Positions 37,812-55,936 are shown, counted from the first letter of the stretch. The stretch: 64,000 nucleotides of DNA from Actinomycetes bacterium (GCA_024641245.1 JAHEDK010000002.1:167136-231135); one strand, 5' to 3'. The notes: a model not told the origin generated them from the sequence alone. Program-made: numbers and translations.

Positions 37812-39608
37812 ATGGAGAAACTTCACTTCTTCGACGAGAACATCCCCTGTCTCGCCGCCTGTCCGGTCAACACGAATGCCGGCATGTACGTTGCCGCCAT
37901 CGCAGACGGACAGGATGAACTGGCCTATCTAACCGCTCGCCTCCCCAACCCGTTCGCCTCCGTCTGCGGTCGGGTTTGTGCGGCGCCATGCGAGGACGCC
38001 TGTCGGCGCGGCGAAATCGACAAGCCCATCGCCATCCGGGCGCTCAAGCGATTCGTCACCGATCAATTCGGCGTCGAATCCGGCATGGATACCTACCGGC
38101 AGGTCGCCGCCCCTGCTCTCGAGTCGCGATCACAAAGCGTCGGGATTGTCGGAGGGGGCCCGGCCGGCCTGGCCGCCGCCCACGACCTCCGCCGCCTCGG
38201 CTACGGCGTCACGCTGTACGAAGCCACCGGTCAGCTCGGCGGCATGATGCTGCTGGGGATCCCCGAGTACCGCCTTGATCGATCCCTCCTGGCGGCGGAG
38301 ATCAAGGCCATCACCGACCTGGGCGTCGAGGTTCGGTTGAACACGAAACTCGGCGATGGCATCACGCTCGATGACCTCCGCCGGCAGCACGATGCCCTAT
38401 TCGTGGCCATCGGGGCGACCCTCGGACGCGGACTCGACCTCGAAGGCCACGACGCAGACGGGGTGTTGAAGGCGATCGAGTACCTGATCAACGCCAACCA
38501 GGGGTTCGCAACCGACGTCGGTCAGAAGGTGGTCGTAATCGGTGGCGGCGACGTGGCGATGGATGCAGCAAGGACCGCGCTACGAGCTGCAACCTACGAT
38601 GAGATCGCCCGCCGCCATGCCGAATACGACGAAGAGGACGGGCGCTCATCCATGACGGAAGCCCTCGACGTGGCTCGCACGGCTGCCCGGACTGGTGCTC
38701 AGGACATAACCATCATGTCACTCGAGGCCAAACACGAGATGCCGGCGTCGGAGTTCGAGGTCGAAGAGGCCGAGCACGAGGACATCAAGTTTGTCAACCG
38801 GCGCGGTCCCGCCCGGATACTCACCGCCGATGGCAAGGTCACCGGCATCGAGACGATCGGGGTCACGCGCGTTTTCGACGAGAACGGCCGGTTCTCCCCT
38901 GAATTCGACGATGCAGATCGGCTGACGCTGGAGGCAGACACCATCATCATGGCTATCGGCCAGGCGATCGATGTTGAGGCACTGGGAGCGAACGGCCCTG
39001 AGTTGAGTCCTCGCAAGACAATCCAAGTGGGTGAGGACAGCCTGGCGACTTCGCTTCCGATGGTATGGGCCGGCGGCGATGCAGCCAGGGGCCCGCGCAC
39101 TCTCATCGATGCGATCGCAGACGGCCGGATTGCGGCCCGTGAGATCCACGAGGCGTTTGGCGGCAGCTTCGCCGAGCAGGATACCGGAACCATGGTGCAA
39201 CTGGACCAGTTCCACCGTCTCGACGACATCTACGACCGGGTCCCCCGGGTCGCCGTGCCCACGCTGCCGACGGACCGGCGCATCGGTCTGGCAGAAGTCG
39301 AAACAGGGTTCACCGTCGAAGAGGCCAGGTGTGAGGCACAGAGGTGTCTGCGCTGCTTCGCCAACATCCTGCTCGATACCGACATTTGTGTTTTATGCGC
39401 GCTGTGCGCCGACGTCTGCCCGCTCGACCTGATTTCGCTGGTTCCCTCGGAGGACATTCACCCAGACGAGCCGGGTGGCACGGCGTTAATGTTGAACGAG
39501 CAAAGCTGCATCCGTTGCGCGCTGTGTATTGAGCGATGCCCGACAGATGCACTGTCGATGGGACTGTGGACCGGAGTGGGAGTGCCGAAATTGGGAGCAC
39601 CGGTATGA
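37812..39608 (+). CDS. GltD-like FAD/NAD(P)-binding Fe-S oxidoreductase with C-terminal 2x[4Fe-4S] ferredoxin domain
   Basis: N-terminal GltD-type cluster region (CLAACPVNTN...FASVCGRVCAAPCEDACRR). Dinucleotide folds VGIVGGGPAGLAAA and VVVIGGGDVAMDAA. C-terminal CLRC...CVLCALCADVCP...CIRCALCIERCP. Confidence 0.85.
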   Translation: MEKLHFFDENIPCLAACPVNTNAGMYVAAIADGQDELAYLTARLPNPFASVCGRVCAAPCEDACRRGEIDKPIAIRALKRFVTDQFGVESGMDTYRQVAAPALESRSQSVGIVGGGPAGLAAAHDLRRLGYGVTLYEATGQLGGMMLLGIPEYRLDRSLLAAEIKAITDLGVEVRLNTKLGDGITLDDLRRQHDALFVAIGATLGRGLDLEGHDADGVLKAIEYLINANQGFATDVGQKVVVIGGGDVAMDAARTALRAATYDEIARRHAEYDEEDGRSSMTEALDVARTAARTGAQDITIMSLEAKHEMPASEFEVEEAEHEDIKFVNRRGPARILTADGKVTGIETIGVTRVFDENGRFSPEFDDADRLTLEADTIIMAIGQAIDVEALGANGPELSPRKTIQVGEDSLATSLPMVWAGGDAARGPRTLIDAIADGRIAAREIHEAFGGSFAEQDTGTMVQLDQFHRLDDIYDRVPRVAVPTLPTDRRIGLAEVETGFTVEEARCEAQRCLRCFANILLDTDICVLCALCADVCPLDLISLVPSEDIHPDEPGGTALMLNEQSCIRCALCIERCPTDALSMGLWTGVGVPKLGAPV

Positions 39609-41948: not shown

Positions 41949-42371
41949 CTACGCGTCCGTCGGGACCTCGTAGGGGTGCCCTTCGTCCTCGGGCGCTTGG
42001 TACTGCTCGTCGTGTTTGACGACCAGCTGGTCGCTGCGGAAGACGTCACCGTCCCAGGCGCCTTCGACGATCGCACCGACGCCTTCGCGGAACAGTTCCG
42101 GTGGGGCTCCCTGGTGCACGATGTGCACTTCATGGGCACCGTCGGACACGGTGAACTCGACTCCATCCGAGGTGGCAACCAGTGTCCCGACTTCGACCTG
42201 ACCGCCGAGCCGGAACCGCTCACCATCGGGGAACTGAGCCCTCTGCTCGATAGCTTCGTTGGGGGTCAAGTAGTAGACGAGGTTCTCGCCGAGGCTGAGA
42301 AACACCATCCATCCGATGATCACAACGATCGCTCCGATGGCGGGAAGTACGAACCAGCGATATCGAGTCAT
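41949..42371 (-). CDS. ccmE: cytochrome c maturation haem chaperone CcmE
   Basis: N-terminal anchor, OB-fold, and the haem-binding motif LVVKHDEQY (compare E. coli VLAKHDENY). Confidence 0.9.
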   Translation of the reverse strand: MTRYRWFVLPAIGAIVVIIGWMVFLSLGENLVYYLTPNEAIEQRAQFPDGERFRLGGQVEVGTLVATSDGVEFTVSDGAHEVHIVHQGAPPELFREGVGAIVEGAWDGDVFRSDQLVVKHDEQYQAPEDEGHPYEVPTDA

Positions 42372-42372
42372 G

Positions 42373-42486
42373 TCAGCCCTCCACCCGGCGGCGGACGCTG
42401 CGCAGGCGCACAGTCAAGAACACCGCATATCCGATCATGAAGCCGTACACCACCGTGTAGGCAAAAACGACCCATCCGTTAGACAT
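42373..42486 (-). CDS. ccmD: CcmD-like small membrane protein (37 aa), not in the ORF track
   Basis: The minus-strand ORF reads MSNGWVVFAYTVVYGFMIGYAVFLTVRLRSVRRRVEG. It sits between ccmC and ccmE, overlapping the ccmC stop by 8 nt and ending 1 nt before the ccmE ATG. One TM helix plus a basic tail is the CcmD layout. Confidence 0.55.
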   Translation of the reverse strand: MSNGWVVFAYTVVYGFMIGYAVFLTVRLRSVRRRVEG

Positions 42487-43204
42487 CTCGCACCTTCTCG
42501 AGGTTGGGAGCCGTGATGGCGGCACCGGCGGGCGTGGCATCAGCGGCGGCGGATTGTTCTTCGAGTTGTTCCTCGCCCCTGGCGATGGCCGTCTTGACGC
42601 TCATGAAGGCGAGATAGACCACGGTGAACGCTCCAACGTTGCTGAGCAACGCCAGCAGGATCTCTCCATCGATCGGAGAATCCGGTCGCACCACCGTGAT
42701 CCCCTGGTGCAACGTGCGAACGATGATCACCGAAACGTAGGACAGCGGCACGAGGAAGAAGGCCACGATGCCCAGCACCGCGGATCTCGTCGCCCGCATG
42801 GCCGGGTCGGGAATGCTGCGGCGCAAAGCCAGGTAACCGAGGTAGACGAAGAACATGAGGGCCGTCGTCATCATGCGGGCATCGCCCCAGTCCCAGAACG
42901 TCCCCCACACCGGGTAACCCCAGATCATGCCGGTCATGAGCGCCAGCGCGGTGAAGAACACGCCGACCGAGACGCTGGACTCGGCGATTCGATCGTAAAC
43001 GGGCTTGCGTCTCGCCAGCCACAGGATCGAGGCGGCGAACGTCACAAGAAACGAGAGGTAGGCAAGCCACGCCGAAGGTACGTGCACGTACATGATGCGG
43101 GTGTAGTCGCCCTGCAACTGATCGAGCGGCGCCTGGCCACCGAAGTAGAAGCCGACCAGCACCGCTGCCAGTGCGATCAACCCGAGTATTCGATGTCTAT
43201 TCAA
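42479..43204 (-). CDS. ccmC: haem exporter/haem handling protein CcmC
   Basis: WWD motif WGYPVWGTFWDWGDARM with flanking His residues, and six TM helices. Confidence 0.9.
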   Translation of the reverse strand: MNRHRILGLIALAAVLVGFYFGGQAPLDQLQGDYTRIMYVHVPSAWLAYLSFLVTFAASILWLARRKPVYDRIAESSVSVGVFFTALALMTGMIWGYPVWGTFWDWGDARMMTTALMFFVYLGYLALRRSIPDPAMRATRSAVLGIVAFFLVPLSYVSVIIVRTLHQGITVVRPDSPIDGEILLALLSNVGAFTVVYLAFMSVKTAIARGEEQLEEQSAAADATPAGAAITAPNLEKVRDV

Positions 43205-43881
43205 CGTGAGGCCTCCTCGAGGAATCGGGCGGTCAGCACACCTACCACTGCCAGCCCGAGTACCACGGCAAGTAGCAGAAGGATGGGAGTGAGGATACTT
43301 GACTTCTGAGCCAACGCTTCATACGTCTGTGATGCTCCGACGAGCAGCGGCAACGCCAGCGGTGCCACCAGCAGCGGTGCCAGCGTGTTACGAGAGCGCA
43401 GACCGGCCGTGATACCGGAGGCGAGCGTACCGATGAGCGCCAGGCCGACGGCCATCAGCAGAAGGACCAAAATCAGGATCGCCCACCCCTCTACCGGGTC
43501 CGGGTTGTAGAGGATGATCGTGGCGGGCGCAAGCACTCCTTCGAACACGAGCAACAGGAGGACGCTCGCCACAACCCTGCCCGCGAACTGCGCGGCCGGG
43601 TCCACGCCGAGCAACACCATCATCTCGCGATTGGCCGAACTCTCTGTGGCCGACTGGCGGAACGTGACCAGCATCCCGAACAGCAGGGTCACGACCCAGA
43701 ACATGCCCGGTCCGATCGAGGCGATGAGTGGACGGTCGGTCCCGATCGCCAGCGGGATGAGCAGCAGCGCAACCGCTCCAAACGGGATCGTGATGTTCAG
43801 GACCTCGCCGGTCCGTCCTTCGACCCGCAGATCCTTCAACCCGATCTCATATGCCTGGCCCCAGAACGACGGACCGCTCAT
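43201..43881 (-). CDS. ccmB: haem exporter membrane protein CcmB
   Basis: Six-TM CcmB-like protein lying between ccmA and ccmC, with 4-bp overlaps on both sides. Confidence 0.85.
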   Translation of the reverse strand: MSGPSFWGQAYEIGLKDLRVEGRTGEVLNITIPFGAVALLLIPLAIGTDRPLIASIGPGMFWVVTLLFGMLVTFRQSATESSANREMMVLLGVDPAAQFAGRVVASVLLLLVFEGVLAPATIILYNPDPVEGWAILILVLLLMAVGLALIGTLASGITAGLRSRNTLAPLLVAPLALPLLVGASQTYEALAQKSSILTPILLLLAVVLGLAVVGVLTARFLEEASR

Positions 43882-44534
43882 GATGAGCTCCCCGCGATCA
43901 CGATCCCACCCGTCAGCTCATAGGTCGATTGCACCAGCGGCAGCATGCGATCGAGTTCGTGGGACACGAAGACGGCGGCGCCACCACGGGAACGGACGTT
44001 CTCGACAACTGCGTCGACGAGTTGTCCGGCCTCTCGATCTAGTCCGGCGTGGGCCTCATCGAGCAGCAGTAGGTCGGGCCTGGTGAGAATCACCCTGGCG
44101 AACTCAACTCGCCGCTGCATACCATGCGACGACTGCTCCGCCCGCCGGTGCTTCGCCCCACCCAGCCCGACCACGTCGAGCATCTCATCTACCCGCTCGT
44201 CAGTGTGGCCCGACAACCGGGCGACGAAGGCGAGATTCTCACGCAGCGTCAACTGCGGGTAGAGCGCCGGTTGATGGCCGATCAGCGCGATCCGGCGCCG
44301 GATCGCAAACGCCGTCGCTTCGCCCATCTCGGTGCCGAACACCGCCACCGAGCCCTCCGTCGGTCGCAGCAACGTGGCCAGCACCCGGAGCAGCGTCGAC
44401 TTTCCCGAACCATTCGGCCCAACGATCCCGGCTGCCTCCCCGGACGGTACCGCCAGCTCCACGCCCTTCAATACCGGCACCCGGCCGTATCGAACGGCGA
44501 CGCCGTGCAGCTGCACTGTGGGAGGTGTGGACAT
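43878..44534 (-). CDS. ccmA: haem exporter ATP-binding protein CcmA
   Basis: Walker A GPNGSGKST, ABC signature SHGMQRR, and Walker B LLLLDEA. I prefer ATG 44534. Confidence 0.9.
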   Translation of the reverse strand: MSTPPTVQLHGVAVRYGRVPVLKGVELAVPSGEAAGIVGPNGSGKSTLLRVLATLLRPTEGSVAVFGTEMGEATAFAIRRRIALIGHQPALYPQLTLRENLAFVARLSGHTDERVDEMLDVVGLGGAKHRRAEQSSHGMQRRVEFARVILTRPDLLLLDEAHAGLDREAGQLVDAVVENVRSRGGAAVFVSHELDRMLPLVQSTYELTGGIVIAGSSS

Positions 44535-44804
44535 GACAGACGAGTGTACGCACGCAGCTTCGGGCGCCGAAACGCGACCCCGGATAAACACCACCCGTTC
44601 TCTCCCTTTCGCCACCTTTTCAGGGTTTTATGGCGGGTTTCAACCCAGGCAGGGCCCAAGTGCCCCAGGGCGCGAGGACTTTGCGCTGTTGGTGTGTTTC
44701 CGATATACCCGTATCCTCTGCAATGAGAAACGGGGGACCGACCCTGAATCGCCGCCGGAACGGCTCATTCACACGGTGATCCCCATGGAGGAAGGCACAG
44801 CAAA

Positions 44805-46844
44805 ATGAACGCGACCCTCGGGTATCTCTCGATCCTGGCCGCAGTGGTGGGAGCGCTCGGTATCACCGTGCGGGGTTTCATCGCGATGCGTGATCCGGAG
44901 CGGGCGAACAAAGGGTATCTGGGGTTGCCCGTCATACTGTTCGTGTCCGGAGCCGTCGGCGCAATGTTCTTCCTGGAACTCGGGCTTCTCACCGACGACT
45001 TCTCGATCAAGTACATCGCCAACAACTCCTCGACCACCACCCCGTTTCTCTTCAAGGTCGCCTCTGGATGGGCATCGCTGGAGGGATCGATCGTTTTGTG
45101 GGGTCTGGTCCTGGCCGGCTTCACATTCGCCGTATACGCACGGTTCTTCAGAAGCGAAAGCGGCGACCGGCTCGCAGCAGGGGCTCTGGCGATCATGGGG
45201 CTCATCTCTCTTTACTTCTTCGGGCTAATGGCCACAATCTCCGACCCATTCGCTCGCTGCGTGCAAACGTTCAGCGACGGTGTCGGTTGTGTGACCGGCG
45301 AGAACGCGATCCTCGCCAACGTGATCTCCTCCCCGATCGAAGGGCGCGGCGCCAACGCACTGCTCCAGAACCATTGGCTCATGGCCCTGCATCCACCAAC
45401 GCTCTACGTCGGCTATGTCGGGCTCAGCGTCCCCTTTGCGTTTGCCATCTCGGCGCTCCTCCTCAAAACCACCGGGGCGGCCTGGCTGACCCGGACCCGC
45501 AACTGGACGGTGTTCGCCTGGATGTTCCTCACTGCCGGCATTGTTCTCGGTGGGCTCTGGTCGTATGAGGTGCTCGGCTGGGGCGGCTACTGGGCATGGG
45601 ACCCGGTTGAGAACGCCTCCTTCATGCCGTGGCTGGTCGCGACTGCCTTCTTGCACTCGTCTGTCGTGCAGGCGAGGCGCGGGATGCTGCAGTCGTGGAA
45701 CTTCGTCCTCGTCATCACGACCTTCGCGCTCACGATTCTCGGCACCTTCTTGACCCGCTCCGGCGTAATCGTTTCGGTTCACAGCTTCTCGCAGTCCGCC
45801 ATCGGGCCTGCCCTGTTGATCTTCCTGGTGGTCGTGCTGCTGGGATCGCTCGGGCTCTTCGCGTCAAGGGCTCACACCATCGCCTCTTCTCCCCGGCTCG
45901 ATTCACTCAGCAGCCGGGAAGGGGTGTTCTTGTTCAACAACCTTCTGCTCACCGTGTTCGCGTTCATGGTGCTGACAGGGACGCTCTACCCGCTCTTCGT
46001 TGAGGCGTTCTCCGACTCGACGGTGGGCGTCGGTCGTCCGTTCTTCGATCGCATGGCGATCCCGTTGTCCTTCCTGTTGCTGCTGGCGATGGGCATCGGA
46101 CCGGTCTCGCCCTACCGGGCGGCGAGCGCCCGCGTCGTGTGGGAGCGGATTCGCTGGCCCGTCCGGGTTGCCCTCGGCGCCGCCGCGCTGGCCGTCGTGT
46201 TCGGCTATCGGAACTCGTTCCTGCTGCTCGGTGTTCTGGCCGCCGTGTTCGTCATGGGCGTGATCATCCGCAACCTCTACGACGCCGCCCGGACCAGGGC
46301 AGACAAACTCGGTATCGGACGGAGACAGGCCGCCGCCCGGATCATGCGCGGCGACCCGCACTATTGGGGTGGCCAGATCTCCCACCTGGGCGTTGCGATA
46401 CTGGCACTGGGCATCGCCTTCTCAGCCAACCTGTCGGAGACCGCCACGGTGACCATCGACGCCGGAGATACGGTCAACTTCGCCGGCTTCGAGGTGACCT
46501 ACGAACAGGAGTTCAGCCGCCAGGAACCGGGCCGGTTCGTCACCGGAGCAGACATCACGGTGACCCGGGACGGGTCGGTCGTCGGTACGTACCAGCCACG
46601 GCTGAATCAGTACGGCAACACGCGGGAATCGATCGCCACCCCAGAGGTCGACACCATGTTCTCAGGCGACCTGTACCTCTCGCTCCGCAGCATCGATCCT
46701 TCATCCGTGACCCTCGAGGTCTATTGGTTCCCGTTCATCTGGCTCATCTGGGTTGGAGGCTTCCTGGCGGCCGCCGCCGGGGTCTGGGGATTCGCGGTCA
46801 AGAAGCCCGAACGTTCGGTTGCACGGGACGACACGCGTGTCTGA
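44805..46844 (+). CDS. ccmF: cytochrome c haem lyase subunit CcmF
   Basis: Large polytopic protein with the WWD motif WGGYWAWDPVENAS. GGAGGAAGG RBS. Confidence 0.9.
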   Translation: MNATLGYLSILAAVVGALGITVRGFIAMRDPERANKGYLGLPVILFVSGAVGAMFFLELGLLTDDFSIKYIANNSSTTTPFLFKVASGWASLEGSIVLWGLVLAGFTFAVYARFFRSESGDRLAAGALAIMGLISLYFFGLMATISDPFARCVQTFSDGVGCVTGENAILANVISSPIEGRGANALLQNHWLMALHPPTLYVGYVGLSVPFAFAISALLLKTTGAAWLTRTRNWTVFAWMFLTAGIVLGGLWSYEVLGWGGYWAWDPVENASFMPWLVATAFLHSSVVQARRGMLQSWNFVLVITTFALTILGTFLTRSGVIVSVHSFSQSAIGPALLIFLVVVLLGSLGLFASRAHTIASSPRLDSLSSREGVFLFNNLLLTVFAFMVLTGTLYPLFVEAFSDSTVGVGRPFFDRMAIPLSFLLLLAMGIGPVSPYRAASARVVWERIRWPVRVALGAAALAVVFGYRNSFLLLGVLAAVFVMGVIIRNLYDAARTRADKLGIGRRQAAARIMRGDPHYWGGQISHLGVAILALGIAFSANLSETATVTIDAGDTVNFAGFEVTYEQEFSRQEPGRFVTGADITVTRDGSVVGTYQPRLNQYGNTRESIATPEVDTMFSGDLYLSLRSIDPSSVTLEVYWFPFIWLIWVGGFLAAAAGVWGFAVKKPERSVARDDTRV

Positions 46845-47250
46845 TTCGATTCGCAAGATCGCGGCGGCGGTGGTGACTATCGGCCTGGCGGTTGTCGTCG
46901 TAATCGGCCTCATCCAGGGCGACCGAACCGATGAAGATCGCGCCCGGTCCATCGGCTCCAGAGTGAAGTGTCCCGTTTGCCAGGGCGTAGCCATTGCCGA
47001 TTCTCCTTCGGAAACTGCCAGAGCGATGATGGACGTCGTCGAAGAGCGAATCGCAGACGGGTGGTCGGACAGACAGATCATCGACTACTTCGCGGAGCGC
47101 TACACCGACAGCATCGTCATCGACCCGCCCTTCAGCGGGAATACGCTGCTCGTCTGGCTGCTGCCGATCCTGGCAGTAGTCGCAGGCTTCTTCATGATCT
47201 TCTCCCGGCGCAAGACGCCGGTGCCAAAACCCGATGAGGTGAAACAGTGA
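46837..47250 (+). CDS. ccmH: cytochrome c biogenesis protein CcmH
   Basis: The CXXC motif is KCPVCQG, followed by the conserved SDS..A..M segment and a C-terminal TM helix. GTG 46837 overlaps the ccmF stop. Confidence 0.85.
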   Translation: MSDSIRKIAAAVVTIGLAVVVVIGLIQGDRTDEDRARSIGSRVKCPVCQGVAIADSPSETARAMMDVVEERIADGWSDRQIIDYFAERYTDSIVIDPPFSGNTLLVWLLPILAVVAGFFMIFSRRKTPVPKPDEVKQ

Positions 47251-48080
47251 GCAACTTCAACCAGGAGTCATACGATCGGGCGGTCGCCCGCAAGGAACTG
47301 GCCTTGACCGATCTCGAAGAGCTGGCCCAGCAGGTGGACGACGGTGAGATCGACGCGCCCACCGCGGCAGGACTCCGGAGCGGCTACGAGGCTGAACTCG
47401 GCGCGGCCGAAGCCGAACTGGCCAGACTCGGTCCACCGCCCACTCCCAAGAAGTCGCCCGGTCAAGCGTCGACCAAACGTGCGCCGAGCGAGAACGGACG
47501 GCCGGCCCGGAAGTCGAGCGACTTGAATACTCGTCTGCTGGTCGGCGCCGGCATTCTCATCGTCGCCCTCGTCGTGATTCTCATCTCGGTCCAGAATTCG
47601 GCGCAGCCGGATCCGGCCGCGATGGGCACCCAGGTGACGACGGCAAGCGGCGAGGACCCCTGCGCGGAGCTGGCCGACGCGTTGACCAGTCACTCCGACA
47701 ACGGCTTTCGTCTCGCACTGGCCGACTGCTACGCAGACGTCGGAAACGCCATGTCGGCGATCGAGCACTACCGGGCCGTCGCCGATGCCGAAGGTGCCGC
47801 CGACGGCGAGGTCGCACGGGCAAACGTGGGACTCGGCTTCCTCAACCTTCAAATCGGTGAGCTCGCCAAGGCCGCCGACTACATGCGCGTGGCGCTCGAG
47901 CGCGACGCCGCCAACGTCGAAGCTCAATACTTCCTGGGCATGATGCTCGTCTACGACCTCGGCGATCCGGCCGCAGGAGCCCCATATCTCGAGTCGGTAC
48001 TCGCAACTCCCGACCTGCCGGAGACGGTGATCCTCGAAATCCAGGCAGCGCTCGATGTCGCGGCGGGCGAGGGCTCATGA
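47247..48080 (+). CDS. CcmI/NrfG-like TPR protein (single TM, extracytoplasmic TPR domain)
   Basis: Coupled to ccmH and to the thioredoxin gene. The C-terminal TPR-like repeats are ADCYADVGNAMSAIEHYRAV and GFLNLQIGELAKAADYMRVAL. Confidence 0.55.
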   Translation: MSNFNQESYDRAVARKELALTDLEELAQQVDDGEIDAPTAAGLRSGYEAELGAAEAELARLGPPPTPKKSPGQASTKRAPSENGRPARKSSDLNTRLLVGAGILIVALVVILISVQNSAQPDPAAMGTQVTTASGEDPCAELADALTSHSDNGFRLALADCYADVGNAMSAIEHYRAVADAEGAADGEVARANVGLGFLNLQIGELAKAADYMRVALERDAANVEAQYFLGMMLVYDLGDPAAGAPYLESVLATPDLPETVILEIQAALDVAAGEGS

Positions 48081-48685
48081 CCAACACGGACCTCGCCGTC
48101 GAGCCGACCCCGGAAGCACCGCAACGCAACCTCAAACTGTGGATAACGACCGGCCTGGCGGCGGTGGCCTTCATCGCGCTCGCCCTCGTGTTCAACAGCC
48201 GGTTTGGCGTTGACCCCCGGGTCGTCGAATCCCCGCTCATCGGGCAACCCGCCCCGAACCTCGAACTCGAGGTTCTCGAGCAGGACGCCATCTCTGGCCC
48301 CATGGCAATGTCGGAATTTCGCGGCAGCGTGGTCGTGGTCAACTTCTTCGCCTCTTGGTGCATCCCCTCCTGTCGCGATGAGCACCCCCATCTCACCGCG
48401 GCCGCCGCCGACTACGCCGACCGCGGCGTCCGGTTCGTTGGAATAGCCACCAGCGACACACCCGAAGACACACGCGGGTTCCTCGACGCGCTCGGGTGGG
48501 GAACCAACTACACCTACCTCAACGATCCCGATGCCAGGGCAGGAGTCGAGTTCGGCACATTCGGAGTTCCCGAAACGTTCGTGATCGACCGGGAGGGGCT
48601 CGTCACGCACAAGTTCACGGGGCCGGTCACATACGATGAACTGGTCGTCGAGTTGGAGAAGGCGTTGACCGAGACGGGTTCATGA
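48077..48685 (+). CDS. ccmG: TlpA/CcmG(DsbE)-like thiol:disulfide oxidoreductase with atypical WCIPSC active site
   Basis: N-terminal anchor and thioredoxin fold. VVVNFFASWCIPSCRDEHPHL aligns with CcmG WC(A/P/V)PCR.EHP but carries one extra residue. The GVPETFVIDREG cis-Pro loop is present. Confidence 0.8.
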   Translation: MTNTDLAVEPTPEAPQRNLKLWITTGLAAVAFIALALVFNSRFGVDPRVVESPLIGQPAPNLELEVLEQDAISGPMAMSEFRGSVVVVNFFASWCIPSCRDEHPHLTAAAADYADRGVRFVGIATSDTPEDTRGFLDALGWGTNYTYLNDPDARAGVEFGTFGVPETFVIDREGLVTHKFTGPVTYDELVVELEKALTETGS

Positions 48686-48794: not shown

Positions 48795-49484
48795 ATGCAG
48801 AGAACAAACGAGCTGACACAAGGCGCGCGGCGGCTGGCCTGGTTGACACTTTTGACGCTCGCATGGTTGTTGTGGATGAGTCAGGCGGCCGCCCACGCCC
48901 AGGAACTCCCGGTACGGGATGATCCGTTCTGGAAGACGGACACCTGCCTCGGCTGCCATCAGCAGTCGGACCTGTCGGTGACGCTGCCATCCAACGAGAC
49001 GCTGCGCCTCGCCGTGTATAGAGGCGCGTACGAAGATTCGGTGCATGGTCGAACAGGAGTGGCCTGCCGCAATTGCCATCTCGACATCACGGGGTATCCG
49101 CACCCTGATCTCACCGCCGGAAGCCTGGCCGAGTTCTCAGAACAGCAGGCCAGTTCTTGCGAGATGTGTCACCGTGACCACTACGGCAAAGTGGCGGATG
49201 AGCTGCATGAGGAGTCCGGTGGGTTGCTGTGCTTCGAGTGTCATGATCCGCACACCACCGGCACCGGCTCCGTCTCGGCAGAAGTGCAAGCCTCCTGCAA
49301 CGCCTGCCACTCCGAGGGTATCGCCATTCCTGTCGAGGGGATTCATGCCGCGCCCGAGGTACCTGTCGCGGAGACCACAAGCGGCGTTACAATCCTGCTC
49401 ATCCTCGGCGGAATCTTCGTCGGTTTCGTCGTCCTCGTCTGGCTGGCGACGGTGGCTTGGCGTGTCGTGCGCGACCGAAGCTGA
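48795..49484 (+). CDS. pentahaem cytochrome c with signal peptide and C-terminal TM anchor
   Basis: Five CXXCH motifs: CLGCH, CRNCH, CEMCH, CFECH, CNACH. The C-terminal helix is ILLILGGIFVGFVVLVWLATVAW. The N-terminal half is paralogous to the 61800 gene. Confidence 0.85.
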   Translation: MQRTNELTQGARRLAWLTLLTLAWLLWMSQAAAHAQELPVRDDPFWKTDTCLGCHQQSDLSVTLPSNETLRLAVYRGAYEDSVHGRTGVACRNCHLDITGYPHPDLTAGSLAEFSEQQASSCEMCHRDHYGKVADELHEESGGLLCFECHDPHTTGTGSVSAEVQASCNACHSEGIAIPVEGIHAAPEVPVAETTSGVTILLILGGIFVGFVVLVWLATVAWRVVRDRS

Positions 49485-49625
49485 TCGGGCCCGTTTCCGC
49501 AGGTTAGCTTGTAGCAATTCCCAATCTTGTGCGCCCTTTCACATGGGTCGAATGACCCTACGCGATCTGCGCGCGGATCCGTCATCATGTCGGTACACGA
49601 GTCGAGTAGCTCCCGGGGAGGAAGC

Positions 49626-51698
49626 ATGAGTCGATTTCGACACACACGCTTGGTTGTGCTTGTCGCCCTGCTGATGGTCTTAGCGGCCTGCACGAGCAGC
49701 GCCGACGACACCACCACTACGGGAGCGGAAGGGTCAACGCCCACGACAGCTCCACCGGTCGTCGAGCCGGCGGAATCCGAGCTCGTGGTTCCGTTCCTAG
49801 CGGCCTGGGTCGGTTCTGGACACAACGACGCGACTGCTGAAGCCTTCGTGCACTGGAATGAGGACGACCCCCAGGTCATTCCGACCAGTTGCGCGAAGTG
49901 CCACAGCACCCCCGGTCACCTCGATTTCCTCGGAGCCGACGGCAGCCCGTTCGGCAGCGTTGAAGCCGACGCCCCCATCGGGACCACGATCCAATGCGAA
50001 GCGTGCCACAACGATGTCACGATCTCCCTGGACAGCGTCGTGATGCCATCGGGTCTCGAACTCACCGGCCTCGGCGACGAATCCCGTTGCATGAACTGCC
50101 ACCAGGGCAGGGAGTCCAAGATCAGCGTGGACGCATCGATTACCGAAGCGGGCGTCGAAGAGGACACCGTCTCCGAGGATCTGGGTTTCCGGAACATCCA
50201 CTACTTCGCGGCTGCCGCCACCAAATACGGTACCGAAGCCAAGGGTGGCTATGAGTACGAGGGCAAGACGTACGATGCGTTCTTCGTCCACGTCGAGGGA
50301 TACTCGACCTGTATTCAGTGCCATGATCCGCACACGCTGGAACTGAAGATCGCCGAATGCTCGACATGCCACACCGGTGTCGCCACGGTTGAGGATCTCC
50401 GAGATGTCCGTATGCCGGGATCACTCGTCGACTTCGACGGAGACGGGAATCTCGAAGAGGGCATCTACTACGAACTCGAGGGCGTGCGGGGACTCTTGCT
50501 CCAGGCCATTCAGGCGTATGCCTCCGAGGTGGCGGGAACCGGCATCACCTACGATGCCAACGCCTACCCGTACTTCTTCGATGAGGCCGGCAAGGGCTTT
50601 GGCGCGTGGACCCCGCGTCTGCTCAAAGCGGCGTACAACTATCAGGTGTCCCTCAAGGACCCGGGAGCATTCGCGCACGGTGGCAAGTACATCCTCGAGT
50701 TGATGTACGACTCGATCGAGAACCTCAACGAAGCCATCTCGTCGCCCATCGACATGACGGCGATGCACCGAATCGACCACGGGCACTTCGCCGGGTCCGA
50801 GGAAGCCTTCCGGCACTGGGACGAGGATGGCGCCGTGCCGGCTTCGTGCTCACGGTGCCACTCGGCTGGAGGCGTGCCGCTGTATCTGCAGGAAGGCGTG
50901 ACGATAACCCAGCCAACTTCCAACGGGTTCAACTGCTCGACGTGCCACAACAGCACGAGCGAGTGGACCCGGTATGAGGTCCTCGATGTGACCTTCCCGA
51001 GCGGTGCGACTATCGACAGCGGCGACCAGAACGCCAACCTTTGCATGACCTGTCACCAGGGCCGTGAATCCGGCGCAAGCGTCGACCGGCGGATCGGAGA
51101 CACCGGGGCGGATACCGTCAGCGACACACTTGGCTTCATCAACGTGCACTACCTGCCGGCGGGCGCCACGCTCTTCGGCAGCGAGGCAGCGGGTGGCTAC
51201 CAGTACGCCGGGCAGACCTATGCCGGAGCCAACGATCACCCCATCGCCACGTGCACGGGTTGCCACAGCGCCCACACACTACAGGTTGAGGTTGAGGCCT
51301 GCGGGGGTTGCCATCAGGGGACGAACTCTGAAGAAGACCTGCAGGACATCCGCATCACCGCCGGCGACTTCGATGGTGACGGCGACGAGGCCGAGGGCAT
51401 CGCCGGAGAGGTCGAGACCATGCGCGAAGCCCTGCTGGCGGCGATGCAGGCGTATGCGGACGCCACGGACGGCGTGAGCCCGATCGTGTACGACGCCCAC
51501 GCCTATCCGTACTTCTTCAACGACGCCGGTGAGAGCTATTCGACCTGGACGCCGCGTCTGCTGAGGGCCGCCTACAACTACCAGTACGCAACGAAGGACC
51601 CTGGTGCGTTCGCCCACAACCCGGCCTACGTGCTCGAGTTGTTGTATGACTCGCTGGCGGACATCGGCGCCGACGTGACGGGGCTGATCAGGCCGTAG
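49626..51698 (+). CDS. decahaem cytochrome c lipoprotein, internally duplicated (2 x 5 haems)
   Basis: Lipobox LLMVLAAC after ATG 49626 (RBS GGGGAGGAAG). Ten CXXCH motifs. The two halves align (e.g. YPYFFDEAGKGFGAWTPRLLKAAYNYQVSLKDPGAFAH versus YPYFFNDAGESYSTWTPRLLRAAYNYQYATKDPGAFAH). Confidence 0.85.
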   Translation: MSRFRHTRLVVLVALLMVLAACTSSADDTTTTGAEGSTPTTAPPVVEPAESELVVPFLAAWVGSGHNDATAEAFVHWNEDDPQVIPTSCAKCHSTPGHLDFLGADGSPFGSVEADAPIGTTIQCEACHNDVTISLDSVVMPSGLELTGLGDESRCMNCHQGRESKISVDASITEAGVEEDTVSEDLGFRNIHYFAAAATKYGTEAKGGYEYEGKTYDAFFVHVEGYSTCIQCHDPHTLELKIAECSTCHTGVATVEDLRDVRMPGSLVDFDGDGNLEEGIYYELEGVRGLLLQAIQAYASEVAGTGITYDANAYPYFFDEAGKGFGAWTPRLLKAAYNYQVSLKDPGAFAHGGKYILELMYDSIENLNEAISSPIDMTAMHRIDHGHFAGSEEAFRHWDEDGAVPASCSRCHSAGGVPLYLQEGVTITQPTSNGFNCSTCHNSTSEWTRYEVLDVTFPSGATIDSGDQNANLCMTCHQGRESGASVDRRIGDTGADTVSDTLGFINVHYLPAGATLFGSEAAGGYQYAGQTYAGANDHPIATCTGCHSAHTLQVEVEACGGCHQGTNSEEDLQDIRITAGDFDGDGDEAEGIAGEVETMREALLAAMQAYADATDGVSPIVYDAHAYPYFFNDAGESYSTWTPRLLRAAYNYQYATKDPGAFAHNPAYVLELLYDSLADIGADVTGLIRP

Positions 51699-51796: not shown

Positions 51797-52708
51797 TCAA
51801 GCAGCCTGGTGGATCGCGGCCAGGACTTCCGCAACAACGGAATCCGGCCGGCCAATCAGGTCCCACCAGGTGTATCGAAGCGTTCTCCAGCCGAGTAGCT
51901 CTGTCTGGTTCTGGATCACGCGGTCTCTGCGAAACGTGGGGCGATCCATGTGAAACGCTTCGGAGTCGAGTTCGATCCGCAGGCGGTGCTCGATGAAGGC
52001 GAAGTCGGCCCGGCATACGAACGTCCCGTCAGGGTTTCTGATCTCCACCTGTGGCGTCGGTTGCGGCGTACGGAGCCCCCACGACCGGCGAAACAGATCT
52101 TCCAGTTCGCTCTCGGTGACGCCATCCCAGTGGAGCCGCTGCTCGACGAACGGCCGTATGACCCCGACTCCCCTGCGGCCGCGCCTGGCGACCCGGCCGA
52201 CCAGCGCGGCAACACCTTCGAGCGTAAAGCTCCGAGTTCTCAGACCTCTATCGAGAGCCGACTCGACCAGCCACGGCGCGCTGGCGCCCAGATCGACGAC
52301 CGTTCGGACCGGAGTGGTCACCGGGATACCCGAGACCTCCGCCGAGTCCTCGGGAGCGAGATCGGTCGACTCGTGAACGACGAACTCCTGATGCGCCCGA
52401 TTCCAGCGGGGCATCACTACCTCGATGCGCGGAGGCTTGCGATCAACCAGGCCGTGCAGGAATGCAGCGGTCTGGTGGGAGGCCAGCGCCAGATCGCCTG
52501 CGGTCGTGGTCGCGATGAGCACGGCCTGATGCCAGTCGCGCGGCACGGCGGGGAAAACGTACGTGCGGTAGGCCACCCGCTCGAGCACTCCGCGGGACGT
52601 CAAACCTTTCAACTGATCTGAGCTGAGCCCTGCCTCAATGACAGCAGCACGATCGACTACGCCGTGTCGCAAGGCGGCCCTCTGAGTGAGAATCTGCAAC
52701 GGTGTCAT
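51797..52708 (-). CDS. AbiEi_4-like N-terminal domain plus DUF559 (Vsr-like endonuclease fold) protein
   Basis: N-terminal HTH-like segment (RHGVVDRAAVIEAGLSSDQLKGLTSRGVLERV). The C-terminal segment ADFAFIEHRLRIELDSEAFH...LGWRTLRYTWWDL is typical of DUF559. The start is ATG 52708 or 52720. The longer track extension runs over the palindromic repeats. Confidence 0.75.
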   Translation of the reverse strand: MTPLQILTQRAALRHGVVDRAAVIEAGLSSDQLKGLTSRGVLERVAYRTYVFPAVPRDWHQAVLIATTTAGDLALASHQTAAFLHGLVDRKPPRIEVVMPRWNRAHQEFVVHESTDLAPEDSAEVSGIPVTTPVRTVVDLGASAPWLVESALDRGLRTRSFTLEGVAALVGRVARRGRRGVGVIRPFVEQRLHWDGVTESELEDLFRRSWGLRTPQPTPQVEIRNPDGTFVCRADFAFIEHRLRIELDSEAFHMDRPTFRRDRVIQNQTELLGWRTLRYTWWDLIGRPDSVVAEVLAAIHQAA

Positions 52709-52755
52709 GCCCAACACCATCAAGGTTGGGTGTGACAAATCCCGAACCCAGTGAA

Positions 52756-52800
52756 CTTGCGTCAGAAACGGGCGCCGGCCGCCCCAAACTGACGCAAGAA
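52756..52800. repeat. REP-like palindromic element, copy C1 (CTTGCGTCAG-N23-CTGACGCAAG)
   Basis: 10-bp perfect arms. The spacer contains GGGCG-ccggc-CGCCC. Confidence 0.8.
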
Positions 52801-52824
52801 AGGGATAGGGGCGCCACCTTCTCG

Positions 52825-52871
52825 TTCTTGCGTCAGTGTTCCGAGCAACGGGCCCAGAAGTGACGCAAGAA
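52825..52871. repeat. REP-like palindromic element, copy C2 (TTCTTGCGTCA-N25-TGACGCAAGAA)
   Basis: 11-bp perfect arms. The left flank CTTCTCGTTCTTGCGTCAG is identical to copy A. Confidence 0.85.
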
Positions 52872-52939
52872 TGAGGAGAGACAGAGAAGTGGGGAGCCTT
52901 TCGGCTCCCCACTTCGGGTGTTCGTTAAGCGACTCTTGT

Positions 52940-53935: not shown

Positions 53936-54249
53936 TTCACCCTCCTCCCGATCGGGCGCTAGCCCGACGTCATGGGAGCCGACCGCTCCCTCCAGTCCCT
54001 TTCCAAACCGTTCCCCGTGCCGCCCTGCGACTCGGGGTGCCCAATCAACGATCAGGATAATCAGACCTTTTAGGTCAAAATATGCCGATAGCACTTGGCG
54101 TATTCATCACTCTATGTGTTTGTCGACACGGCGTCAAGTTGGAGAAGGGCCCCATAACGACAGGGCCGTTCGGCCCTATCAACGAGGCACACCGCACTAC
54201 CGAAATCGGCCGGAACAGGTATTATTTATCTCAGGGTGGCGGAGGATAA

Positions 54250-55752: not shown

Positions 55753-55936
55753 TGACAGACCCGACCTCCATCACCCGGCGAATGCCATTGGGCCCTACAG
55801 GACACAATTCGACCGCGGGTACCGTCGCGTTAGGACCCGCGGGTGCTGTCAGGAACCGCGGATTGGGCCACATGGGAGAGAGGCGAGGGCCCGCAATGGT
55901 TTGTGAATGCCGTGAGTGGTCGAGAGGGGGCCCACG

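What the first reader, a model, noticed from the sequence alone, without database searches (positions are those of the whole stretch)
41949..48685. Complete System I (Ccm) cytochrome c maturation in a probably actinobacterial genome, sitting between the bc operon and the multihaem genes
Seen directly: ccmE-ccmD-ccmC-ccmB-ccmA lie on the minus strand. They are divergent from ccmF, ccmH, a ccmI-like TPR gene and a ccmG-like gene on the plus strand, across a 270-bp shared control region (44535-44804). The diagnostic motifs are present:
- CcmE: KHDEQY
- CcmC: WGxxWxWD
- CcmF: WGGYWAWDPVEN
- CcmH: CPVCQ

Established knowledge: the well-studied Actinomycetota (Mycobacterium, Streptomyces, Corynebacterium) mature c-type cytochromes with System II (CcsA/CcsB(ResBC), CcdA, ResA).

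The inference is that System I, which handles haem at low concentration and is typical of multihaem-rich bacteria, was co-acquired or co-retained with the cytochrome island.
Basis: partly seen in the sequence, partly recalled or inferred. Interest (0 to 1): 0.5.

Follow-up and report, generated by a model that had tools for sequence, protein, structure and literature searches.

The report
Actinobacterial System I cytochrome c maturation cluster
The window carries a complete, intact-looking Ccm (System I) haem-attachment gene cluster in an Acidimicrobiia genome; this machinery is normal for that actinobacterial class rather than a recent import, though one redox component (CcmG) has an unusual active site.

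Summary
ccmE-D-C-B-A lie on the minus strand and ccmF-H-(TPR)-G on the plus strand, at the stated coordinates. Family matches and catalytic residues are intact. The cluster sits between a b6/Rieske/cyt c operon and nine multihaem genes.

The organism is most likely an Acidimicrobiia (Actinomycetota).

- 47 of the 80 closest CcmF loci in species-representative genomes are labelled Actinomycetota, and some are closed chromosomes. So System I is lineage-typical.
- A concatenated CcmB+C+E+F tree groups all actinobacterial clusters together (94.5% bootstrap).
- GC, codon usage and tetranucleotides are uniform across the window.
- 36 of 36 loci from the second Acidimicrobiia clade have ccm but no multihaem neighbour.

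Recent co-acquisition with the cytochrome island is therefore not supported. Co-retention is partly supported: in the window's own clade, ccmF-H-TPR-G sits next to multihaem genes in 11 of 14 loci.

The same A-B-C-D-E-F-H-TPR-G cluster is on a mobilizable Pseudonocardia plasmid.

New details:
- CcmG has a conserved C-x3-C site (WCIPSC) instead of CxxC.
- CcmC has a one-residue insertion in its WWD motif.
- The TPR gene is CcmI-like; it is fused to CcmH in one relative.

System II cannot be excluded beyond the window.

The parts
41949..42371 (-). ccmE, the membrane-anchored haem chaperone (140 aa). Haem-binding motif KHDEQY (His/Tyr).
   Evidence: PF03100 at E 2.6e-25. NF009727 at E 1.2e-32, below its equivalog cut-off. 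The HxxxY motif aligns with E. coli H130/Y134.
42373..42486 (-). Probable ccmD (37 aa, one TM helix, basic C-terminus). The ORF is listed up to 42540.
   Evidence: It has a conserved position between ccmC and ccmE. It is 55-82% identical in L001-L005. A 40-aa ORF sits at the same place on the Pseudonocardia plasmid. The ATG is preceded by GAGAAGG. PF04995 is not detected, whereas E. coli CcmD, used as a control, is.
42479..43204 (-). ccmC (241 aa). WWD domain WGTFWDWGDARM with a one-residue insertion; both flanking haem-ligand histidines are present.
   Evidence: PF01578 at E 8.8e-26. TIGR01191 at E 1e-42, 146 bits, below its cut-off of 186. H41 and H166 align to E. coli H60 and H184. The insertion is shared only with other Acidimicrobiia.
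43201..43881 (-). ccmB, the ABC permease (226 aa).
   Evidence: PF03379 at E 3.7e-26. TIGR01190 at E 9e-15, below cut-off.
43878..44534 (-). ccmA, the ABC ATPase (218 aa from ATG 44534). An alternative GTG start lies at 44615.
   Evidence: TIGR01189 at 143 bits, above its cut-off of 131.6. PF00005. For the start: family alignments begin after residue 33 of the long ORF, and the extension lacks codon-position conservation.
44535..44804 (.). 270-bp divergent intergenic region between ccmA and ccmF. It has conserved blocks, including 44646-44667 CAGGCAGGGCCCAAGTGCCCCA.
   Evidence: In an alignment with L001, L002 and L023, the 22-nt block is identical in all four, although the proteins are about 80% identical. 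There is no sigma-70 consensus and no terminator. There is no Rfam match. A consensus fold from 4 sequences is not convincing.
44805..46844 (+). ccmF, the haem lyase/haem-handling subunit (679 aa). WWD motif WGGYWAWDPVEN and four conserved histidines.
   Evidence: PF16327 at E 1.4e-66 plus PF01578. TIGR00353 at E 1e-124, below cut-off. H196, H284, H326 and H527 align to E. coli H173, H261, H303 and H491 and are invariant in 63 sequences.
46837..47250 (+). ccmH (137 aa from a GTG that overlaps the ccmF stop). Motif KCPVCQ; C-terminal TM helix.
   Evidence: PF03918 at E 4.7e-28. A 137-aa gene is called on identical Logan contigs. Aligned with E. coli, Cupriavidus and Pseudonocardia CcmH.
47247..48080 (+). 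CcmI-like protein (277 aa). It has an N-terminal cytoplasmic coiled-coil-like segment, one TM helix and periplasmic TPR repeats.
   Evidence: Weak TPR_16 hit. The gene sits between ccmH and ccmG in L001-L012 and on the Pseudonocardia plasmid, where it is annotated as a TPR protein. hhalign against CcmI gives 75% probability, E 2.5e-5, over the first periplasmic TPRs. In L015 the homologous domain is fused to CcmH. No NCBIfam CcmI model was among the hits.
48077..48685 (+). CcmG ortholog (202 aa, N-terminal TM anchor, thioredoxin fold). The active site is non-canonical: W-C-I-P-S-C (C-x3-C, residues 95-99, nt 48359-48373).
   Evidence: Redoxin/AhpC-TSA and TIGR00385 at E 1e-26. The best PDB sequence hits are CycY/CcmG 1KNG, E. 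coli CcmG and P. aeruginosa CcmG, each with a one-residue gap at the motif. The AF2 model has pLDDT 90.9, and the Foldseek top hits are CcmG structures. C-x3-C is conserved in 23 protein clusters at 68-100% identity and in L001, L002, L008 and L010.

Best explanation
This is a functional System I (Ccm) cytochrome c maturation cluster of an Acidimicrobiia bacterium. It was inherited within an old, actinobacteria-specific Ccm lineage and was not imported together with the cytochrome island.

Inferred mechanism, by homology with E. coli and Rhodobacter:
- CcmAB (ABC ATPase and permease) work with CcmC and CcmD to load haem, through the CcmC WWD domain and its two histidines, onto His of the HxxxY motif of membrane-anchored CcmE.
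- Holo-CcmE delivers haem to CcmF (WWD domain plus four His).
- CcmF, with CcmH (CPVC) and the TPR protein acting as a CcmI-like apocytochrome chaperone, ligates haem to the CxxCH motifs of Sec-exported apocytochromes.
- CcmG keeps or returns the CxxCH thiols in the reduced state. It probably receives electrons from a CcdA encoded elsewhere. CcdA lies next to the cluster in L006 and on the Pseudonocardia plasmid.

Likely clients are the roughly 80 haem sites encoded around the cluster (the bc-type complex cytochrome c and nine multihaem proteins), plus any other c-type cytochromes of the cell.

The divergent ccmEDCBA / ccmFH-TPR-G layout is a local inversion of the collinear ccmABCDE-F-H-TPR-G order seen in sister genomes.

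Shown: gene content, motifs, conservation, phylogeny, composition. Inferred: activity, electron donor, substrate range.
For: - Gene content: family matches for 7 of the 9 proteins.
- Catalytic residues: all are conserved.
- Translational coupling: genes overlap by 4 or 8 nt and Shine-Dalgarno sequences are present.
- Synteny: the cluster is conserved at 58-92% amino-acid identity in L001 (MAG Ww198) from the cyt b/c fusion through MHC2.
- Gene order: collinear ABCDE-F-H-TPR-G in L003-L005 and on Pseudonocardia plasmid pFRP1-1.
- Taxonomy: 47 of 80 nearest CcmF loci are labelled Actinomycetota, including closed chromosomes. NCBI names of 73-76% identical CcmG homologues are '[Acidimicrobiia bacterium]'. 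The housekeeping gene GlnE has syntenic relatives, one of them labelled '[Actinomycetota bacterium]'.
- Phylogeny: in the concatenated CcmB+C+E+F NJ tree, the window clade has 100% bootstrap, the second Acidimicrobiia clade 100%, and the two together 94.5%. They are sister to Gemmatimonadota plus delta/Myxococcota and far from alpha, beta and gamma outgroups.
- Shared rare change: the CcmC WWD one-residue insertion is found in both Acidimicrobiia clades and nowhere else.
- Composition: GC is flat at about 0.63. GC3 is 0.74-0.80. RSCU correlations are 0.95-0.97. Tetranucleotide correlations are 0.91-0.97.
- No ResB or CcdA homologue in the 64 kb.
- All neighbouring cytochromes use canonical CxxCH.
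Against: - No functional data exist.
- CcmG lacks the canonical CxxC (it is C-x3-C), so the thio-reduction branch may work differently.
- CcmD is not detectable by profile, and CcmI is only weakly detectable.
- The electron donor (CcdA or DsbD) is not in the window.
- Whether the genome also has System II, or a second ccmF, could not be tested.
- Trees are neighbour-joining on 25-63 sequences. With CcmF alone, the relation of the two actinobacterial clades is unresolved (42%).
- Taxonomy rests on submitters' MAG labels. Some labels in the same hit list are plainly wrong: L020 'Bifidobacterium breve' and L057 'Klebsiella pneumoniae'.
Confidence: 0.8

Rival explanations
1. One reading: System I was acquired horizontally together with the bc/multihaem island, from a Gram-negative donor, into an actinobacterium that would otherwise use System II.
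For: - Model Actinomycetes use System II. The Rhodococcus plasmid locus L088 shows TlpA-CcdA-ResB-CcsB.
- The nearest non-actinobacterial Ccm proteins are from Gemmatimonadota and delta/Myxococcota, at about 40% identity.
- The same cluster type sits on a mobilizable MOBF plasmid in Pseudonocardia, so it can move.
- In the window's clade, ccmF-H-TPR-G is usually next to multihaem genes.
Against: - There is no compositional break between housekeeping, ccm and cytochrome genes.
- Actinobacterial clusters are monophyletic in the concatenated tree (94.5%).
- ccm is present in dozens of Acidimicrobiia species. This includes 36 loci with no multihaem neighbour and several closed chromosomes.
- The Acidimicrobiia-specific CcmC insertion is shared by both clades.
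- Any transfer would have to be ancient, at or near the base of the class, and not tied to this island.
Confidence: 0.1
2. The ccmF-H-TPR-G module of this clade is a dedicated, NrfEFG-like haem lyase and thio-reduction set. It is specialised for the adjacent multihaem cytochromes and works alongside a second, general maturation system (System II or a second ccmF) elsewhere in the genome.
For: - The module is linked to multihaem genes in 11 of 14 clade loci.
- In L006-L013 the module stands without ccmABCDE nearby, as nrfEFG does in E. coli.
- Dedicated CcmF/H/I paralogues are a known principle (review PMC3601427).
- CcmG has a derived C-x3-C site exactly in the lineages that carry the pentahaem gene MHC1 immediately downstream.
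Against: - In the window, L001-L005 and L023 the module is adjacent to ccmABCDE of the same clade.
- No two of the 80 CcmF loci come from the same assembly. That scan is not exhaustive.
- No CxxCK or Cx4CH motifs were found; the only non-canonical match is one Cx3CH in an ORF of doubtful frame.
- No ResB or CcsA is in the window.
Confidence: 0.1

Closest known systems
Canonical System I, CcmABCDEFGH(I), of E. coli, Rhodobacter capsulatus and Cupriavidus (loci L081, L085)
   Same: - The same nine functions are present.
- CcmC and CcmF have WWD domains with all haem-ligand histidines.
- CcmE has HxxxY and CcmH has CxxC.
- CcmG has a thioredoxin fold; the best PDB matches are 1KNG, 2B1K and 3KH7.
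- Genes are translationally coupled.
   Different: - Gene order is F-H-I-G instead of F-G-H-(I).
- The ABCDE half is inverted.
- The CcmC WWD motif has one extra residue (W-D-W-G-D).
- CcmG has C-x3-C instead of CxxC.
- The CcmI-like protein has one TM helix and an N-terminal cytoplasmic segment, not the two-TM CcmI, and it does not hit CcmI profiles.
- CcmD is not recognised by PF04995.
- Proteins are only about 35-40% identical.
- The host is an actinobacterium, whereas the review states System I occurs in Gram-negatives, archaea and plant mitochondria.
ccm cluster on Pseudonocardia sp. EC080625-04 plasmid pFRP1-1 (NZ_CP010990.1, locus L082)
   Same: - It has the same A-B-C-(40-aa ORF)-E-F-H-TPR-redoxin composition and F-H-TPR-G order.
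- CcmF is 47.6% identical.
- It falls in the same well-supported clade.
   Different: - The genes are collinear, not divergent.
- CcdA is adjacent.
- CcmG is canonical (WCVAC) and the CcmC WWD motif is canonical.
- There is no multihaem neighbour (ctaD is nearby).
- It is plasmid-borne in the class Actinomycetes.
- PGAP labels its CcmC 'CcsA'.
ccmABC(D)EFGH clusters of other Acidimicrobiia (Ca. Poriferisocius, Microthrixaceae, Baikal MAGs; L017-L073)
   Same: - They are from the same class.
- They are sister clade in the concatenated tree (94.5%).
- Many share the CcmC W-E/D-W-G-D insertion.
   Different: - CcmF is about 42% identical.
- Gene order is the canonical F-G-H.
- No TPR gene was detected.
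- CcmG has CxxC.
- No multihaem ORFs lie within about 10 kb.
System II (ResB/CcsB + CcsA/ResC + CcdA + ResA) of Actinomycetes, e.g. the Rhodococcus pyridinivorans plasmid locus L088
   Same: - It has the same end product (holocytochrome c).
- CcsB shares the WWD haem-handling domain with CcmC and CcmF.
- It includes a TlpA/ResA-type thioredoxin.
   Different: The window has no ResB and no CcdA. It has CcmE and CcmAB, which System II lacks.
Sco/SenC copper chaperones (C-x3-C in a thioredoxin fold; recalled from my own knowledge)
   Same: They have a C-x3-C motif at the position of the thioredoxin CxxC.
   Different: The window protein matches CcmG, DsbE and ResA by sequence and by fold, not Sco. 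The resemblance is limited to the cysteine spacing.

Membership tests
System I (Ccm) cytochrome c maturation | CcmA ABC ATPase and CcmB permease | tested here: met
   CcmA hits TIGR01189 at 143 bits, above its cut-off of 131.6. CcmB hits PF03379 at 92 bits, above its cut-off of 24.9.
System I (Ccm) cytochrome c maturation | CcmC with a WWD domain and two flanking His haem ligands | tested here: met
   PF01578 and TIGR01191 at E 1e-42. H41 and H166 align to E. coli H60 and H184. The WWD motif is present but has a one-residue insertion, WGTFWDWGD.
System I (Ccm) cytochrome c maturation | CcmD small membrane protein | tested here: inconclusive
   A 37-aa single-TM ORF lies in the right place and is conserved in relatives. 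PF04995 is not detected, while E. coli CcmD scores E 8e-17.
System I (Ccm) cytochrome c maturation | CcmE with the covalent haem-binding His of HxxxY (not the CxxxY of System I*) | tested here: met
   PF03100 at E 2.6e-25. KHDEQY aligns with E. coli KHDENY.
System I (Ccm) cytochrome c maturation | CcmF with a WWD domain and four conserved His | tested here: met
   PF16327 plus PF01578. WGGYWAWDPVEN is present. H196, H284, H326 and H527 are invariant in 63 aligned sequences.
System I (Ccm) cytochrome c maturation | CcmH with a CxxC motif | tested here: met
   PF03918 at E 4.7e-28. KCPVCQ is present.
CcmG/DsbE thiol:disulfide oxidoreductase | Membrane-anchored thioredoxin fold with a W-C-x-x-C active site | tested here: not met
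   The fold and overall sequence are met: TIGR00385 at E 1e-26, below its cut-off of 123; PDB 1KNG at E 1e-25; AF2 pLDDT 90.9; Foldseek top hits are CcmG. The motif, however, is W-C-I-P-S-C (C-x3-C). This is conserved in 23 protein clusters and 4 relative loci. I therefore treat it as a CcmG ortholog with a variant active site.
CcmI (apocytochrome chaperone) | Membrane protein with a cytoplasmic segment and periplasmic TPR repeats, genetically linked or fused to CcmH | tested here: inconclusive
   TPR hits are weak. hhalign against CcmI gives 75% probability, E 2.5e-5. No NCBIfam CcmI hit. Its position after ccmH is conserved in more than 12 loci, and the domain is fused to CcmH in L015.
System I (Ccm) cytochrome c maturation | Covalent haem attachment to CxxCH of exported apocytochromes | not testable with these tools
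   This needs expression or complementation and haem staining.
System II (CcsBA/ResBC) | ResB/CcsB and CcsA/ResC, with CcdA and ResA | tested here: not met
   tblastn with the Rhodococcus ResB, CcsB, CcdA and TlpA proteins found no ResB and no CcdA in the window. The CcsB query hit only the WWD regions of CcmF and CcmC. The rest of the genome was not available.
NrfEFG-type dedicated haem lyase | A paralogous CcmF/H/I set next to a client with a non-canonical motif (CxxCK) | tested here: not met
   No CxxCK or Cx4CH motif occurs in the ten cytochrome ORFs; the one Cx3CH match lies in an ORF of doubtful frame (58093-59157). ccmABCDE is adjacent.

The most novel reading that the evidence does not exclude
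A sub-lineage of Acidimicrobiia, comprising the window, L001, L002, L008, L010 and at least 23 metagenomic protein clusters, may have remodelled the thio-reduction branch of System I. Its CcmG carries a conserved C-x3-C active site and is always followed by a membrane-anchored pentahaem cytochrome gene. This may reflect co-evolution of the maturation machinery with cell-surface multihaem (extracellular electron transfer) cytochromes in an actinobacterium. If so, it would be a functionally distinct System I variant, not neutral drift.
Probability: 0.2. Interest if true: 0.55.

Novelty: new variant of a known kind. Interest (0 to 1): 0.35.

Why it matters
Reviews describe System I as a feature of Gram-negative bacteria, archaea and plant mitochondria (PMC3601427). 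Actinobacteria are usually treated as System II organisms.

The data here show that a whole actinobacterial class, Acidimicrobiia, carries its own monophyletic System I lineage. A plasmid-borne offshoot occurs in Pseudonocardia. My literature searches found no discussion of this.

This matters in three ways:
- It corrects annotation and metabolic inference for abundant marine, soil and sponge Acidimicrobiia.
- It removes the need to invoke island-linked gene transfer for this locus.
- It offers natural variants for probing how the Ccm machinery tolerates change: the CcmG C-x3-C site, the CcmC WWD insertion, a single-TM CcmI-like protein, and a CcmH-TPR fusion.

None of this is a new kind of system.

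Tried and rejected
- Exact look-up of the window's CcmF in the assembly index found nothing. CcmG did find identical Logan contigs, but the NCBI record name was not returned.
- No tRNA, rRNA or Rfam family is in the window to use for direct placement.
- Six literature searches for System I or Ccm in Acidimicrobiia or Actinomycetota returned nothing relevant. The Kranz 2009 review is not held. The Feammox Acidimicrobiaceae A6 paper has no genome or cytochrome content.
- The CcmF-only tree could not resolve whether the two actinobacterial clades are sisters (42%). Concatenation was needed.
- The conserved intergenic blocks could not be assigned to anything. There is no sigma-70-like promoter or terminator and no Rfam hit. 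The four-sequence consensus fold has too little covariation to be believed.
- An N-terminal extension of CcmA to the GTG at 44615 was considered and rejected, because it shows no codon-position conservation pattern.
- A single origin of the C-x3-C CcmG could not be shown (12-15% bootstrap).
- A Sco-like (copper) reading of the C-x3-C protein was considered. It was set aside because sequence and fold match CcmG/ResA, not Sco.
- MAG contamination as the explanation for 'ccm in Actinobacteria' was rejected, because closed Acidimicrobiales chromosomes carry the cluster.

Full report
**1. Observation**

The ORF list shows nine tightly packed ORFs at 41949-48685. Five are on the minus strand (ccmE, a small ORF, ccmC, ccmB, ccmA). 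Four are on the plus strand (ccmF, ccmH, a TPR gene, a thioredoxin-like gene).

Pfam and NCBIfam recognise CcmE, CcmC, CcmB, CcmA, CcmF, CcmH and a DsbE/CcmG-type redoxin. The TPR gene gives only a weak TPR_16 hit. The small ORF gives no CcmD hit, even though E. coli CcmD scores well as a control.

The exception is CcmC, which reads WGTFWDWGD: one extra Gly relative to the canonical WGxxWxWD.

Aligned to E. coli, the four CcmF histidines, the two CcmC histidines and the CcmE HxxxY motif are all conserved.

Reading the DNA fixes the starts:
- ccmA: ATG 44534
- ccmD: ATG 42486
- ccmH: GTG 46837
- ccmF: ATG 44805

This leaves exactly the 270-bp divergent gap that was described.

Upstream lie a cytochrome b6/subunit IV/Rieske/cytochrome c operon and a cytochrome b(C)-octahaem fusion. 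Downstream lie most of the multihaem genes. The window holds nine ORFs with at least 3 CxxCH motifs and 79 CxxCH motifs in all.

**2. Whose genome**

The window has no tRNA, rRNA or Rfam hit. Placement therefore rests on the labels of the nearest protein relatives.

- A scan of one genome per GTDB species with CcmF returned 80 loci. The two closest (83% and 78%) are unclassified MAGs. The next dozen (59-64%) are nearly all labelled Acidimicrobiia or Acidimicrobiaceae.
- In all, 47 of the 80 loci are labelled Actinomycetota. These include closed chromosomes of Ca. Poriferisocius and Acidimicrobiales.
- The housekeeping gene GlnE has relatives at 94%, 70-77% and about 56% identity. They share the aminotransferase-NadE-GlnE-M20-prephenate dehydrogenase synteny. 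A member of a 52% cluster is labelled '[Actinomycetota bacterium]'.
- NCBI names of the 73-76% identical CcmG homologues read '[Acidimicrobiia bacterium]'.

I conclude that the source is an Acidimicrobiia. The caveat is that these are submitters' labels, and a few labels in the same list are obviously wrong (L020, L057, L071, L077).

**3. Is System I unusual here, and was it co-acquired with the cytochromes?**

*Distribution and layout.* tblastn of the window proteins against all 80 loci shows two patterns.
- Thirty-six loci from other Acidimicrobiia (Poriferisocius, Microthrixaceae, Baikal MAGs and others) have the canonical collinear ccmABC(D)EFGH order.
- The window's own clade (L001-L013, L023), the Actinomycetes/Actinomycetota MAGs L015 and L016, and a cultured Pseudonocardia plasmid have the order F-H-TPR-G.
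- Within the window's clade, ccmABCDE is inverted (window, L001, L002, L023), collinear (L003-L005), or absent from the fetched flanks (L006-L013).

*Phylogeny.* With E. coli, Cupriavidus and Celeribacter as outgroups, the CcmF tree gives three strongly supported ingroup clades:
- clade I: the window clade, plus Actinomycetes MAGs and the Pseudonocardia plasmid;
- clade II: the other Acidimicrobiia;
- clade III: Gemmatimonadota plus delta/Myxococcota.

The order of these three is unresolved with CcmF alone. The concatenated CcmB+C+E+F alignment (1205 columns) joins clades I and II with 94.5% bootstrap.

A rare change supports this grouping. The one-residue insertion in the CcmC WWD motif occurs in both actinobacterial clades and in no other sequence.

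*Composition.* The window is homogeneous.
- GC is about 0.63 throughout.
- GC3 is 0.74 for housekeeping genes, 0.80 for ccm and 0.75 for the multihaem genes.
- RSCU correlations are 0.95-0.97.

*Neighbourhood.* Counting CxxCH motifs in all loci shows that 36 of 36 clade II loci have no multihaem ORF within about 10 kb of ccm.

*Conclusion.* System I is an old, lineage-typical trait of Acidimicrobiia. Recent co-acquisition with the island is not supported.

In the window's own clade the ccmF-H-TPR-G module lies beside multihaem genes in 11 of 14 loci, so the linkage is conserved there.

The cluster type is also mobile within the phylum. Pseudonocardia sp. EC080625-04 carries ccdA / ccmA-B-C-(40 aa)-E-F-H-TPR-redoxin on a mobilizable MOBF plasmid. 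Its CcmF is 47.6% identical to the window's.

**4. System II**

A Rhodococcus plasmid provided a reference TlpA-CcdA-ResB-CcsB set. Used as tblastn queries, these proteins found no ResB and no CcdA in the window. The CcsB query hit only the WWD regions of CcmF and CcmC, and the TlpA query hit CcmG.

CcdA sits next to ccmF in L006 and on the Pseudonocardia plasmid. It is therefore the likely electron donor, encoded elsewhere in this genome.

**5. Lineage-specific details**

*CcmG.*
- The active site is W-C-I-P-S-C, that is C-x3-C.
- The same spacing (WC[IV]P[ASN]C) occurs in L001, L002, L008 and L010, and in 23 of the 120 best protein clusters, all of them at least 68% identical.
- Every other homologue examined has CxxC, including Pseudonocardia and all PDB CcmG structures.
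- The AF2 model is confident (pLDDT 90.9). It places C95 just before helix alpha-1 and C99 in its first turn. The best Foldseek matches are CcmG structures (1KNG, 2B1K, 3KH7), not Sco.
- The lineages with C-x3-C are also the ones with a homologue of the pentahaem, C-terminally anchored MHC1 directly downstream of ccmG.
- Whether C-x3-C arose once or twice is unresolved.

*The TPR protein.*
- Its architecture is conserved: an N-terminal cytoplasmic segment, one TM helix and periplasmic TPRs.
- It aligns to the first TPRs of proteobacterial CcmI at 75% hhalign probability.
- In L015 its homologous TM+TPR part is fused to CcmH. This is the same fusion logic as E. coli CcmH, which equals CcmH plus CcmI (PMC3601427).
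- It does not hit CcmI profiles. I call it CcmI-like.

*Client motifs.* Across the ten cytochrome ORFs no CxxCK or Cx4CH motif occurs. The only non-canonical match is a single Cx3CH (CAGACH) in the ORF 58093-59157, whose reading frame is doubtful. This argues against a dedicated NrfEFG-type lyase.

**6. Mechanism**

By homology, the steps are:
- CcmAB, CcmC and CcmD load haem onto CcmE.
- CcmE passes haem to CcmF.
- CcmF, CcmH and the CcmI-like protein attach haem to CxxCH sites of exported apocytochromes.
- CcmG, reduced by CcdA, keeps the cysteines reduced.

Gene content, motifs, conservation and ancestry are shown. Activity, electron donor and client range are inferred.

**7. Novelty and verdict**

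The kind of system is known, and its genes are already annotated in public records. One example is mislabelled: PGAP calls the Pseudonocardia CcmC 'CcsA'.

What appears not to be in the literature I could search is the following:
- a whole actinobacterial class carries its own System I lineage, contrary to the usual summary of its distribution;
- the C-x3-C CcmG variant.

My rating is 'new variant of a known kind', with modest interest (0.35). The co-acquisition inference is not supported. The looser 'co-retained with the cytochromes' holds only for the window's own clade.

Noticed in passing
window 48359-48373 (CcmG residues 95-99); also L001, L002, L008, L010: The CcmG active site is C-I-P-S-C (C-x3-C) instead of CxxC. 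This is conserved in 23 of the 120 best homologue clusters (all at least 68% identical) and in four relative loci. It is absent from all other CcmG, DsbE and ResA sequences examined. It coincides with a pentahaem gene directly downstream.
   Followed up: yes
window 42479-43204 (CcmC), motif WGTFWDWGDARM: There is a one-residue (Gly) insertion in the WWD haem-handling motif. It is shared by the window clade and by the Poriferisocius, Microthrixaceae and L017 CcmC proteins. It is absent from Gemmatimonadota, delta/Myxococcota, E. coli, Cupriavidus and Pseudonocardia. It may serve as an Acidimicrobiia signature.
   Followed up: partly
window 44646-44667 and neighbouring blocks within 44535-44804: A 22-nt block, CAGGCAGGGCCCAAGTGCCCCA, contains a short GGGC/GCCC palindrome. 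It is identical in the window, L001, L002 and L023, although the flanking proteins are only about 80% identical. Further conserved blocks follow, up to the ccmF Shine-Dalgarno. No promoter consensus and no Rfam family match. It may be a regulator site or a leader element.
   Followed up: partly
L082 (Pseudonocardia sp. EC080625-04 plasmid pFRP1-1, NZ_CP010990.1 268272-275627): A cultured Actinomycetes strain carries a complete ccdA / ccmABC-(D)-EFH-TPR-G cluster on a mobilizable MOBF plasmid, next to ctaD. PGAP names its CcmC 'CcsA' and leaves CcmA, CcmH, CcmI and CcmG with generic names.
   Followed up: partly
L015 12067-13104 (Actinomycetes MAG JANXUF010000044.1); L016 likewise: CcmH is fused to a TM+TPR domain homologous to the window's TPR protein, giving a 345-aa CcmH-CcmI-type fusion. 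A 962-aa pentahaem ORF lies directly upstream of ccmF.
   Followed up: partly
window 35069-37669: An 866-aa ORF combines a cytochrome b C-terminal/PetD-like membrane domain with several mono- and multihaem cytochrome c domains (8 CxxCH). It lies upstream of a GltD-like FeS flavoprotein gene (37812-39608) and a split b6/subunit IV/Rieske/cyt c operon. The ORF is conserved in L001 (80%) and, at about 50%, in L003, L012 and L013.
   Followed up: no
window 51797-52912 (-) and 52001-56000: An AbiEi-antitoxin-like gene sits inside the multihaem gene array. The 52-56 kb segment has the lowest tetranucleotide correlation with the rest of the window (0.91, against 0.94-0.97 elsewhere).
   Followed up: no
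window 49527-51698 (MHC2) and 48795-49484 (MHC1): The decahaem MHC2 has a lipoprotein-type signal (LAAC lipobox). The pentahaem MHC1 has a C-terminal TM anchor. This suggests that these cytochromes are tethered to the outer face of the membrane.
   Followed up: no
window 57293-58309 and 58093-59157: Two overlapping plus-strand ORFs in different frames both carry many CxxCH motifs (10 and 8). The gene boundaries or frames here are uncertain; there may be a frameshift or a wrong start.
   Followed up: no
L020, L057, L071, L077 (titles): Public MAGs titled Bifidobacterium breve, Klebsiella pneumoniae and Enterobacteriaceae carry ccm clusters that group with Acidimicrobiia or with delta/Myxococcota sequences. 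These taxonomic labels are almost certainly wrong.
   Followed up: no
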